NCBI RefSeq assembly: GCF_022379125.1
Contig: NC_061519.1
Coordinates: 23,983,101-24,047,100, forward strand
Reading direction: 5' to 3'
Source: Scophthalmus maximus
Taxonomy: Eukaryota
DNA: 64,000 bases
The notes beneath the pieces are model-generated. The model ran no database searches. It had not been told where the DNA came from and worked only from the letters and a program-made list of their open reading frames with translations. Made by a program: the position numbers and the translations under genes. Of this stretch, positions 11,501-14,500 are shown in pieces. The stretch's first letter is position 1. Each line of letters starts with the position of its first letter.

Positions 11501-14500
11501 AACTTTTTTCTAAAACACAATTTGCCAGAAAATATTGCTCAGACAGAATATTAAACTTTTCATAATGAAGAACCGGCCGTTGACAAACCGTCCATCTTAC
11601 CTGAGACTGGGATTTGGCCCCTTTCTTTCTGAACACACCACTCAGGAGTCCCCCTTTCTCCTGGGGGGGGGGGGGGGGGGGATACGCAAAATGCAACGTT
11701 AACCTTGTTACATGATTTACAGTTTTACGGTTGGAGGACGTAGGATCACAGCTTTAATAAACAAACCTCACCTTGGTGTTGTTCTCAGACAGATTGTCGT
11801 TGCTGGCCGAGAGCTCGCCGGGCGCAGACAGGTCGTCCTGAAGGTGAGAAAAACAAACGCCTACAGAGTTATTGAACGTCTCCTGCACAAGTGAACGTGG
11901 GACGAGTGAGATGCACGACTCTCACCTGGGACTGCGTCCTCGCGCCAAAGGGCTTTGGAGATTTTTTAAACATGCCACTGAACATCCCACCTGACTCCTG
12001 GGGGGGGGGGGGGGTTCAGATGTTACAGATTATAATCTGGTCGTGTGATATTGTACAAGACAAGTTCAGGGAGGTGACGGGCTTTTTAGGAAACCTCACC
12101 TTAGTGTTGCCTGCGGCAGAAACGTTGTCGCTGCTGCCGGAGAGTTCGCTCGGTGCAGACAAATCCTCCTGAAGGACGGACAACAAGCGTCTCCAGTCAT
12201 TAATCGTCTCCCAGTACGGGGACACGGGTCAAAGTGAGACGCACAACGCTCACCTGGGACTGTGCCCTCGCTCCGAAGGGCTTTGGGGATTTTTTGAAAA
12301 TTCCACTGAACATCCCGCCTGACTCCTGGGAAAAGGAAAAGTCGCTTTTTAAAAAGGCACAATTCGACAACATGTGCCCACAGCGGGGGGAGTTTAGTTC
12401 CTTTAGTTCCCCCGGCTTCTGATGTCAAACGAACAAGCGGGAGTTTCACACGGCAGCTGATGCAGACTGGTTCAGCTCGCCCCTTCCCGACACACACAAA
12501 GACAAACACAGACTCTCACGTCCACGAGTTCAACTCGGGACACTTGAACCTCCGAAATGTCCCCGGACTCAGGATTGCAGAACGAATATTACGTTACAAG
12601 TTATAATCTGGTCGTGTGACATTATTATTTCGCGGAGGTGACCTCACCTTAGTGCTGCCTGTCAGAGAAACGTTGTCGTCGTTGCTGCCGGAGAGTTCGC
12701 TCGGTGCAGACAAATCCTCCTGGAGGACGGACAACAAGCGTCATCAGTTATTATCGTCTCCTGATAAGGTTTTTGGTTTTTTTAAAGATAGGTGAGACGC
12801 GTGAGATGCAGAACTCTCACCTGAGACTGTGTCCTCTTCTTGTCTTTTTTAAACATCCCACTGAACATCCCACCGGACTCCTGGAACATTTTGCAAATAA
12901 CATTAACAGTACAGTTTGAGGACATTTTCCAAAGTGGAAGCGTTTATCGAAGCATTCCTCTGGTTTCAGATGTGAAATGGACAAGCAGAAAAATGTCCGC
13001 ATCGGAATAAGGATATGTGTTCCAACATGTCTCCAATCTGGTAGCGAACAAGACAAGCAGGATGGAGGTGACGGGCTCTCATCGACCTCACCTTAGTGCT
13101 GCCTGTCAGAGAAACGTTGTCGTCGTTGCTGCCGGAGAGTTCGCTCGGTGCAGACAAATCCTCCTGGAGGACGGACAACAAGCGTCTCCAGTTATTATAG
13201 TCCACTAATGAGGTAAAAGAAATAAGGTTAAATTGAGACAAGTGAGACGCACAACTCTCACCTGGGACTGTGTCCTCTTCTTGTCTTTTTTAAACATCCC
13301 ACTGAACATCCCACCGGACTCCTGGACAAAAATTGAAAAATGACCTTAAAGGTACAGTCCGAGAACATTTCCCAAAGTGGAGGATTTCATCGACCTCACC
13401 TTAGTGTTGCCTGATAGGGAAACATTGTCGTTGCTGTCGGAGAGTTCGCTCGGTGCAGACAAATCCTCCTGAATGAAAGAAACAAGCATCTCCAGTTATT
13501 AACCCTCTCCTAATAACGGTTAAAAAAACAAAACAAAGTTAAAGTGAGACGCACAACTCTCACCCGGGATTGTGTCCTCTTCTTGTCTTTTTTAAACATC
13601 CCACTGAACATCCCACCGGACTCCTGGAGAACGGAAGAAAAAAAGCAAAAAAACACGTCACATAATAATTGGTGACAAAAATAAACTCTATGTTTGTGAA
13701 GTGCTGCAGCTGTCACGTGGACATGCAGGGATTTACCCATCAGCCAGTACTTTCTGTCAAAGTGCTGACGGGTGCAGGTTAACGTCGCTAAAAACAAAAA
13801 CAGCGCCCGTCCCAAACGCTGCACTCAATGCGTTGAGCTCCCCACGTCTGTCGCTGGGGAATCACTCATGTCATTGTACGAATGAATGTTCCTGCTCTCT
13901 GATCGCGACTTGACATAACTCCATACAGTAGCCATTCGTTAGGATGGTTTATGGTTTATCGCTCAGTGAGAAGCACAGTGGACGTGATGCAGATTAAATA
14001 CACTCAGGTTGTGGAAAGGTTTTGACGACTATTAAGGTTTTTACAGCACACACTTGCTTAAATTATTGGGAAATACAATATACAATAAATTAATAAAGAT
14101 TCTTTTTTAAATTTCCCCCAAATTTTCAGCTACAGATGATCTCATTTCAAAGAGTCAGTAAAAGCTGAATCAGGAAAACATGGAAACCATACAGGCAAAT
14201 TTCACATAAAATCCATTTATAGTTACTTTTAAAATTGTTTGATTGTCTATGCATTTGTAAAAAAAAAAGTATAATACTTGTGTTTTAATTATATTTTTGG
14301 TCATATTTAGTTCCATCTTATTTAAATACCTGTTCTAACTTTTGTTATCCCTGGTCGATCTAGATTGGCTTTGTCAATAAACATGTTTAAAAAGCAGTTT
14401 GTGTGTATATTACAAAGTTTTTCCTCAGATGAACATTCCTAAAAATTAAAAATACTCTGGCTGATGAGACTCACCTTAGTGTTGCTGTTGTCGGACAAAC

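What the first reader, a model, noticed from the sequence alone, without database searches (positions are those of the whole stretch)
11590..13625. Exons and introns co-duplicated at near identity inside a gene, showing ongoing exon-array expansion by unequal crossing-over
Units of ~310-540 bp (B exon + intron + A exon + intron) repeat with only scattered substitutions. Even intron motifs such as ..gtcctcttcttgtcttttttaaacatcccactgaacatcccaccggactcctgg are preserved. This implies very recent or ongoing tandem duplication, likely copy-number polymorphism, and a protein whose length varies in 43-45-aa steps.
Basis: seen in the sequence. Interest (0 to 1): 0.6.

Follow-up and report, generated by a model that had tools for sequence, protein, structure and literature searches.

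The report
Old exon-pair repeats in turbot apol1
The region is a real tandem array of a duplicated two-exon cassette, introns included, inside the turbot apolipoprotein-L1-like gene, but the copies are old, the same in two turbot genome assemblies, and already in the RefSeq gene model, so it is an ordinary case of gene growth by exon duplication.

Summary
Window 11590-13625 lies in a minus-strand, 40-exon turbot (Scophthalmus maximus) gene, CDS 17962..2464. My model equals RefSeq XP_035489696.2 (1128 aa), which is misnamed 'dentin sialophosphoprotein' and is really the teleost apol1-type gene with a C-terminal ApoL domain.

The repeat is real. A basic 'B' exon (ESGGMFSGMFKK..., 60/72 nt) alternates with an acidic 'A' exon (EDLSAPSELSGSNDNVS..TK, 66-72 nt). 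All are phase 0-0, and the units are 302-555 bp. Intron homology shows that whole units were duplicated.

'Near identity' is overstated:
- The best unit-to-unit BLAST matches are 81-85% identical.
- Exons are 91-100% identical among U1-U3, but introns are far more diverged and differ by large indels.

A second turbot assembly has the same six units, so no copy-number variation is seen.

Unit trees across seven species show lineage-specific duplications in turbot (U1-U3, perhaps U4). The youngest turbot pair has intron divergence like that between flatfish families. Exons of U2/U3 differ at 1 of 132 nt, which suggests exon-focused gene conversion or constraint.

Verdict: a new member of a known kind, of low interest.

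The parts
2464..17962 (-). Coding span of the host gene. It has 40 coding exons and a 1128-aa product, the teleost apol1-type gene (RefSeq isoform X1, XP_035489696.2, named 'dentin sialophosphoprotein').
   Evidence: Exon model with AG/GT borders at every junction. Its translation is identical to P0127. Orthologues in many acanthomorph teleosts are mostly named apolipoprotein L1.
11049..16146 (-). Full array of nine alternating B (basic, GG-x-F-x-G-x-F-K-K) and A (acidic, Ser/Asn/Asp-rich) exon pairs, exons 2-19 of the model.
   Evidence: B exons have net charge +2 to +4, and A exons -1 to -4.
13322..13623 (-). Unit U1. B exon 13623-13564 (ESGGMFSGMFKKDKKRTQSR), intron 95 nt, A exon 13468-13400 (EDLSAPSELSDSNDNVSLSGNTK), intron 78 nt.
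12881..13321 (-). Unit U2. B exon 13321-13262, intron 98 nt, A exon 13163-13092 (EDLSAPSELSGSNDDNVSLTGSTK), intron 211 nt.
12326..12880 (-). Unit U3. B exon 12880-12821, intron 101 nt, A exon 12719-12648 (identical to the A exon of U2), intron 322 nt. This is the sister copy of U2.
   Evidence: U2+U3 are sisters in the exon-only tree (90%) and the intron-only tree (84%).
11998..12325 (-). Unit U4. Long-form B exon 12325-12254 (ESGGMFSGIFKKSPKPFGARAQSQ), intron 85 nt, A exon 12168-12100, intron 102 nt.
11661..11997 (-). Unit U5. B exon 11997-11926, intron 88 nt, A exon 11837-11772 (DDLSAPGELSASNDNLSENNTK), intron 111 nt. This is the stable last ESGG-type unit, orthologous across all seven species compared.
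11049..11660 (-). Unit U6, older and divergent. B exon 11660-11601 (EKGGLLSGVFRKKGAKSQSQ), intron 486 nt, A exon 11114-11049.
12640..12742 (-). A 103-nt stretch exactly identical to 13084-13186. It covers the last 23 nt of the intron, the whole A exon and the first 8 nt of the next intron. It is either a candidate gene-conversion tract or a constrained exon with its splice signals.
   Evidence: longest exact run, family D2
2464..3418 (-). Last exon, encoding the ApoL domain (Pfam PF05461, residues 817-1071 of the protein), which includes a hydrophobic Gly/Ala-rich stretch.
   Evidence: E 5.5e-36, 125 bits against a cut-off of 25.9

Best explanation
The region is part of the long, probably disordered N-terminal half of the turbot apol1-type protein. 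That half was built by repeated tandem duplication of a two-exon cassette, introns included. The cassette is a basic B exon carrying GGMFSGMFKK and an acidic serine-rich A exon.

All of these exons are phase 0-0, so gaining, losing or skipping a cassette keeps the reading frame. The alternating array is old in teleosts.

Within flatfishes the 'ESGG' subfamily of units expanded separately in different lineages. In the turbot lineage U1, U2 and U3 (and probably U4) arose from one ancestral unit, and U2/U3 is the latest split.

These duplications are not recent. The introns have since diverged by substitutions, by indels of tens to hundreds of nt and possibly by a micro-inversion. They have diverged about as much as orthologous introns differ between flatfish families.

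The exons have stayed nearly identical. This reflects purifying selection on the peptide motifs and splice signals, probably helped by short exon-centred gene conversion between U2 and U3.

The copy number looks fixed in turbot. Length variation in the protein comes from skipping of cassette pairs in transcripts.

Shown: the anatomy, the intron homology, the two-assembly identity and the unit phylogeny. Inferred: the duplication mechanism (unequal recombination), gene conversion, and the function of the motifs.
For: - Gene model and identity: 40 exons, all 36 internal exons from exon 1 (17793) to exon 36 (3981) in phase 0-0, translation equal to RefSeq isoform X1. ApoL domain at E 5.5e-36.
- Unit similarity: 66-85% by BLAST. 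Introns align but carry many indels.
- Ancestral intron: the long A-to-B intron of swordfish unit 1 (463 nt) contains the segments that survive in pieces in turbot U2, U3 and U4. This is my own reading of the sequences, not a computed alignment. It suggests whole units were copied and the introns later shrank.
- Second turbot assembly: collinear at 99.1% with the same six units. It differs only by SNPs, a 14-bp intron indel and poly-C length.
- Unit trees: the last unit is orthologous in all species; turbot U1-U3 form a clade (95-99%) and adding U4 gives 60-76%; U2+U3 are sisters in the intron-only tree too (84%); further own-lineage duplicates appear in halibut/flounder and in tongue sole.
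- Distances in the same alignment columns: U2-U3 introns differ by 34%, against 19-30% for halibut versus olive flounder orthologues. U2-U3 exons differ by 0.8%, against 9-16%.
- Exon versus intron contrast for U2-U3: 1/132 against 60/202 differences, Fisher p = 4e-14, with a 103-nt exact run.
- Age of the array: the same B/A alternation occurs in bonefish (with five near-identical units of its own), eel and charr (only three pairs).
Against: - Only two turbot haplotypes were compared, so rare copy-number alleles cannot be excluded.
- The intron-only tree does not resolve U1 and U4 with U2/U3. Part of the 'turbot clade' signal therefore comes from exons, which gene conversion could have homogenised.
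- Intron distances from short, indel-rich alignments are inflated and serve only as relative measures.
- Gene conversion is inferred from a pattern. Strong constraint on short exons (splicing enhancers plus peptide motifs) could give a similar pattern.
- No absolute dating was computed.
- No experimental data on the function of the motifs were found.
Confidence: 0.8

Rival explanations
1. One reading: the array is expanding now by unequal crossing-over, the units are near-identical, and copy number is polymorphic among turbot individuals.
For: - Exons of U2 and U3 differ at 1 of 132 nt, and three B exons share 50 identical nt.
- Unit number differs among flatfish species.
- RefSeq isoforms differ by one or two units. 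In principle this could reflect deletion alleles in the RNA-seq donors.
Against: - Whole-unit identity is only 81-85% for the best pairs.
- Introns of the youngest pair are as diverged as orthologous introns between flatfish families, and about a hundred times the substitution difference between the two assemblies here.
- Two independent assemblies have identical unit number and order.
Confidence: 0.07
2. The array is an assembly artefact, that is, a spurious expansion or collapse of a repeat.
For: Repeats of 300-550 bp with identical exon cores, and homopolymer C runs, are places where assemblers can err. The poly-C lengths do differ between the two assemblies.
Against: - A second, independently assembled turbot genome gives the same six units with unit-specific intron sequences.
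- The units are distinguishable from each other (15-35% intron divergence), so collapse or expansion is unlikely.
- The RefSeq X1 model contains every exon.
- Orthologous arrays exist in six other species.
Confidence: 0.02
3. The five ESGG-type units are all ancient and orthologous across flatfishes. Turbot U1-U4 look alike only because gene conversion homogenised them (concerted evolution), so there was no turbot-specific duplication.
For: - Exons are far more alike than introns.
- The intron-only tree supports only U2+U3 and does not support a U1-U4 turbot clade.
- Turbot and halibut both have five ESGG-type units.
Against: - Unit counts differ: 2, 3, 3, 4, 5, 5 and 5.
- No turbot unit other than U5 pairs with a specific halibut, flounder or olive flounder unit in any tree, whereas those three species show clear one-to-one orthologues among themselves. 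Concerted evolution is therefore not the rule at this locus.
- U2+U3 are sisters on intron sequence alone (84%).
Confidence: 0.12

Closest known systems
Internal tandem exon duplication in repeat-built genes (examples from my own knowledge: TCOF1/treacle with repeated acidic/basic exons, titin PEVK exons, collagen 54-bp exons)
   Same: - Short phase-symmetric exons are duplicated together with their introns.
- They encode a low-complexity, probably disordered region made of alternating charged motifs.
- Unit number differs between lineages.
- Cassette exons can be skipped in frame.
   Different: The unit here is a specific two-exon cassette (basic GGMFSGMFKK exon plus acidic Ser-rich exon) attached to an ApoL membrane domain. 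No published description of this array was found in one full-text search or in the two zebrafish apol1 papers checked by term search.
Copy-number-polymorphic multi-exon coding repeats (from my own knowledge: LPA kringle IV-2 two-exon repeat, the nebulin triplicated exon block, NBPF Olduvai exon doublets)
   Same: A tandem unit of two exons plus introns in which each copy adds a fixed number of residues in frame.
   Different: Those arrays have units that are nearly identical in their introns too, and they vary in copy number within the species. Here the introns are strongly diverged, with 66-85% whole-unit identity, and two turbot assemblies agree on copy number.
Zebrafish apol1 / human APOL family (PF05461)
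   Same: The C-terminal ApoL domain is present. UniProt names a 438-aa fragment of the turbot protein 'Apolipoprotein L, 1'. Zebrafish apol1 has been studied as a kidney-filtration gene (PMC4492502, PMC4854397).
   Different: The zebrafish work used a 2.6-kb locus coding for the ApoL-domain part (PMC4492502). The roughly 780-aa N-terminal exon-array region described here is not mentioned there. Human APOL proteins have no such array, as far as I know.

Membership tests
Tandem exon(-pair) duplication array | Adjacent exons or exon groups with significant mutual sequence similarity | tested here: met
   Self-BLAST E values from 7e-98 to 1e-5 between units; repeat families.
Tandem exon(-pair) duplication array | Introns co-duplicated, i.e. 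homology extends into the introns | tested here: met
   Intron alignments. The intron-only tree joins U2+U3 at 84%. By my own reading, pieces of the swordfish long intron are recognisable in turbot U2, U3 and U4.
Tandem exon(-pair) duplication array | Symmetric intron phase, so that unit gain or loss keeps the reading frame | tested here: met
   All exons of the array are phase 0-0 with AG/GT borders.
Tandem exon(-pair) duplication array | Unit number differs between related lineages | tested here: met
   ESGG-type units: 2 in swordfish, 3 in tongue sole, 3 in sole, 4 in olive flounder, 5 in halibut, 5 in flounder, 5 in turbot. Charr has only 3 B/A pairs in total, against 9 in turbot.
Copy-number-polymorphic coding macrosatellite (LPA KIV-2 type) | Units nearly identical over their whole length, introns included | tested here: not met
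   The best whole-unit matches are 81-85%, and the others 66-77%. Introns differ by large indels.
Copy-number-polymorphic coding macrosatellite (LPA KIV-2 type) | Different copy numbers among individuals of the species | tested here: not met
   The window and GCA_006346445.1 have the same six units. With only two haplotypes, rare alleles are not excluded.
ApoL protein family (Pfam PF05461) | ApoL domain scoring above the Pfam gathering threshold | tested here: met
   125 bits against a cut-off of 25.9, E 5.5e-36, residues 817-1071.
Orthologue of zebrafish apol1 | One-to-one orthology by phylogeny or synteny with the zebrafish chr2 locus | not tested
   Rests only on source names ('Apolipoprotein L, 1' in UniProt; 'apolipoprotein L1' in RefSeq for most teleost hits). 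The zebrafish locus was not fetched.
Alternatively spliced cassette exons | Transcripts that skip individual units | tested here: inconclusive
   RefSeq isoforms X4-X10 lack exon pairs 9-10, 12-13, 13-14 and 14-15, or two pairs together. These are computed models. Reads cannot be placed uniquely on the near-identical exons 10/12 and 11/13, so some of these isoforms may be mapping artefacts.

The most novel reading that the evidence does not exclude
The B/A cassette array is a hotspot that has expanded independently in many teleost lineages: turbot, the halibut/flounder family, tongue sole, and bonefish with five near-identical units. This would be because the number of basic/acidic motif pairs tunes the activity of a membrane-active ApoL protein. 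In turbot, exon-restricted gene conversion would actively keep three cassettes identical while their introns drift. That would make this a natural system for studying selection on motif valency and exon-limited concerted evolution.
Probability: 0.25. Interest if true: 0.4.

Novelty: new member of a known kind. Interest (0 to 1): 0.2.

Why it matters
It matters little beyond annotation.
- It shows that the turbot gene RefSeq calls 'dentin sialophosphoprotein' is the apol1-type gene. Its long N-terminal half was built from duplicated two-exon cassettes, and zebrafish apol1 studies worked with a much shorter gene model.
- For people using fish apol1 as a kidney-disease model, the large, lineage-variable, alternatively spliced N-terminal region with four NPF motifs may be relevant.
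- For evolutionary genomics, it is a tidy example of birth-and-death of exon cassettes with exons conserved far beyond their introns. The phenomenon itself is well known.

Tried and rejected
- Tandem Repeats Finder did not report the array, because the units are too diverged and indel-rich. The repeat had to be shown with the repeat finder, MAFFT and BLAST.
- My first pairwise identities used cheap gap extension and gave meaningless 95% values for introns of very unequal length. I replaced them with MAFFT and BLAST measures.
- Look-ups of non-longest isoforms failed. I obtained the longest isoforms through cluster listing.
- An array-only protein search meant to find turbot transcript fragments with other unit numbers returned none from turbot. 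It did show the array in basal teleosts.
- I checked the + strand ORFs over the region (for example 11891-12172). They are mechanical read-throughs of antisense exons and were rejected.
- I considered treacle/Nopp140-type identity from the acidic/basic alternation and rejected it once the ApoL domain and the orthologues were found.
- I considered an AP-2 beta-appendage-type motif in the B exon and rejected it because the Phe spacing is F-x-x-x-F (my own knowledge; not tested).

Full report
WHAT THE SEQUENCE IS

The window is turbot (Scophthalmus maximus) genomic DNA. Read on the minus strand, the stretch 17962..2464 contains 40 coding exons. Every junction has AG/GT borders, and every internal exon from 17793 down to 3981 is in phase 0-0.

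The 1128-aa translation is identical to RefSeq XP_035489696.2, isoform X1 (P0127). RefSeq names it 'dentin sialophosphoprotein', a low-complexity misnomer. The last exon (3418-2464) encodes an ApoL domain (PF05461, E 5.5e-36, 125 bits). Most of the best-scoring teleost hits are called apolipoprotein L1, and UniProt calls a 438-aa fragment of the turbot protein 'Apolipoprotein L, 1'.

Upstream on the same strand lie exons with TROVE, DUF4062 and WD40 matches, which is a TEP1-type architecture, and farther on a PARP catalytic exon.

CHECKING THE OBSERVATION

The finding's coordinates cover five and a half units of an alternating exon array.
- 'B' exons are 60 or 72 nt and encode ESGGMFSGMFKK followed by DKKRTQSQ or SPKPFGARTQSQ.
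- 'A' exons are 66-72 nt and encode EDLSAPSELSGSNDDNVSLTGSTK and variants.
- Units measured from one B exon to the next are 302, 441, 555, 328 and 337 bp.

The repetition is far beyond chance. Self-BLAST gives off-diagonal matches with E from 7e-98 to 1e-5. A 50-nt B-exon string occurs three times exactly, against none in 100 shuffles. The introns align between units, so whole units were copied, introns included.

Three parts of the description do not hold.
- The units are not near-identical. The best whole-unit matches are 85.0%, 84.6% and 80.6%, U4-U5 is 77%, and the rest are 66-73%. The A-to-B introns are 78, 211, 322, 102 and 111 nt long.
- The sequence quoted as a preserved 'intron motif' is the reverse complement of the splice acceptor plus the first 50 nt of the B exon. 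It says nothing about intron conservation.
- The steps are 42-47 aa, not 43-45.

The array also extends well beyond the stated span. Nine B/A pairs run from 16146 to 11049.

IS IT RECENT, ONGOING OR POLYMORPHIC?

A second turbot assembly (GCA_006346445.1, locus L001) is collinear with the window. Over window 15400-10800 it is 99.1% identical and carries the same six units in the same order. It differs only by 13 substitutions, a 14-bp intron indel at 12642, and shorter poly-C runs at 12014 and 11681. This rules out an assembly artefact and gives no sign of copy-number variation. Two haplotypes cannot exclude rare alleles.

I then fetched the orthologous loci of six other species: Pacific halibut, European flounder, olive flounder, common sole, tongue sole and swordfish. 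I located their units. ESGG-type units number 2 (swordfish), 3 (tongue sole), 3 (sole), 4 (olive flounder), 5 (halibut), 5 (flounder) and 5 (turbot).

Neighbour-joining trees of 27 units show the following.
- The last unit (turbot U5) is orthologous in all species.
- Halibut, flounder and olive flounder share clear one-to-one orthologous units, plus an extra duplication within the halibut/flounder family.
- Tongue sole U1 and U2 are each other's closest relatives.
- Turbot U1-U3 form a turbot-only clade (95-99% bootstrap), and adding U4 gives 60-76%.
- U2+U3 are sisters in the exon-only tree (90%) and also in the intron-only tree (84%).

So the idea that the array grows by tandem duplication of whole units is right on an evolutionary scale.

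The turbot duplications are old, though. In the same alignment columns, flanking-intron sequence differs by 34% between U2 and U3, the youngest pair. That compares with 12-23% between halibut and flounder orthologues, 19-30% between halibut and olive flounder, and 41-50% between turbot and other species. These raw values are inflated by hard-to-align intron stretches and are meaningful only relative to one another. Even in the cleanly aligned parts of U2/U3 introns I count about 15-22% differences by eye (my reading of the alignment, not a computed value). The two turbot assemblies differ by about 0.3% in substitutions. My inference, from general knowledge of flatfish divergence times and not computed here, is an age of the order of tens of millions of years.

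EXONS VERSUS INTRONS

The exons of U2 and U3 differ at 1 of 132 nt, a synonymous TCC/TCT change. Their introns differ at 60 of 202 aligned positions (Fisher p = 4e-14). A 103-nt run is exactly identical across the A exon and its splice signals (13186-13084 = 12742-12640).

Orthologous exons at comparable intron divergence differ by 9-16%. Ordinary purifying selection on the peptide therefore does not fully explain the identity. Short exon-centred gene conversion between U2 and U3 would explain it, as would unusually strong nucleotide-level constraint on these short exons. I regard conversion as likely but not shown.

HOW OLD AND HOW GENERAL THE ARRAY IS

A protein search with the array alone found the same B/A alternation in bonefish, eel, charr, Polymixia and opah. 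The charr model runs from three B/A pairs into the conserved segment just upstream of the ApoL domain, so it is the same gene with far fewer units. The bonefish model has five near-identical units of its own. The cassette is therefore old in teleosts and has expanded independently several times.

HOW IT PROBABLY WORKS

B exons are basic (net charge +2 to +4) and carry two hydrophobic/aromatic positions in a conserved G-G-x-F-x-G-x-F-K-K core. A exons are acidic (-1 to -4) and 57-68% Ser/Thr/Asn/Asp/Glu. Further downstream, other short phase-0 exons alternate in the same manner and carry four NPF motifs, at residues 434, 511, 690 and 733.

I infer a multivalent, disordered linker of alternating charged motifs in front of a membrane-inserting ApoL domain, with valency set by the number of cassettes. 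The cellular function of the motifs is unknown and was not testable here.

RefSeq isoforms X4-X10 differ from X1 exactly by the absence of one or two cassette pairs. The protein's length may therefore vary in 43-48-aa steps through splicing. Because exons 10/12 and 11/13 are almost or fully identical, short-read evidence for some of these isoforms is ambiguous.

COMPARISON WITH WHAT IS KNOWN, AND VERDICT

The structure is a standard product of internal tandem exon duplication, like other repeat-built genes. It resembles copy-number-polymorphic two-exon repeats such as LPA kringle IV-2 in layout. It fails the two features that define that class: near-identical units including introns, and within-species copy-number differences.

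The exons are already annotated in RefSeq. One full-text search and term searches of the two zebrafish apol1 papers found no description of the array; those studies used a 2.6-kb locus (PMC4492502).

I rate it a new member of a known kind, with low interest.

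Noticed in passing
window 11663-11681 and 12000-14 (poly-G on + strand = poly-C before the acceptors of B exons at 11660 and 11997): The polypyrimidine tracts of two array introns are pure C runs of 19 and 15 nt. They are 7 and 4 nt shorter in the second turbot assembly. They are therefore either length-polymorphic or homopolymer sequencing errors.
   Followed up: partly
window 12642 (intron just after the A exon of U3): The window haplotype lacks 14 bp (GTCTCCAAAAGCCC) that the other turbot assembly has. The longer allele matches the paralogous position in U2 and U4, so the window carries a derived deletion 8 nt from a splice donor.
   Followed up: partly
window ~12768-12792 (intron 1 of U3): There may be a micro-inversion of about 22 nt. 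The A-rich segment ctttaaaaaaaccaaaaacc aligns better to the T-rich segment of U1 as its reverse complement (score 13 against 6). The sequence is low-complexity, so the evidence is weak.
   Followed up: partly
window 10897-10950, 10166-10219, 6015-6071, 5592-5642 (minus strand exons 20, 24, 32, 34): Four NPF tripeptides lie in short basic exons of the same gene, two of them in a second duplicated pair (TKVKKHKHHNPFMSRAAAK / TKVKKPQRHNPFMPRVK) that alternates with acidic exons. NPF is the classic EH-domain-binding motif (my own knowledge). This hints at an endocytic or recycling link for this ApoL protein.
   Followed up: no
window 25000-42300 minus strand; ~61570-61760 minus strand: The neighbouring genes are a TEP1-type gene (TROVE, DUF4062, WD40 exons) and a PARP catalytic-domain exon. 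One database gene model in another fish (P0110, Scortum barcoo) fuses ApoL with WD40 domains, probably a read-through annotation of these neighbours.
   Followed up: partly
window 1-376 (minus strand, running off the window); L001 18635-19534: In the second turbot assembly's annotation, another gene with an ApoL-domain hit (1583-residue model) starts just downstream of apol1 and would run off the low end of the window. It may be a tandem ApoL paralogue or a fused model.
   Followed up: no
window 44381-44872 and 45076-45499: Two nearly identical blocks of a 26-28/54-nt AT-rich minisatellite, each followed by a poly-A run. This looks like a duplicated segment or repeated element unrelated to the finding.
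   Followed up: no
window 7294-7489, 7530-7601, 53485-53637, 61749-61934: Very long perfect (AC)n/(TG)n microsatellites, up to 98 repeats, one of them inside an apol1 intron.
   Followed up: no
L002 (swordfish) 6220-6682 versus window 12326-12647 and 12881-13091: The A-to-B intron shares recognisable stretches (for example ccatttgacatctgaaacc.gaggaatgcttc) between swordfish and turbot units, despite the deep divergence of these species. I saw this by eye. It could be a conserved intronic element, such as a splicing regulator, or just slow decay.
   Followed up: no
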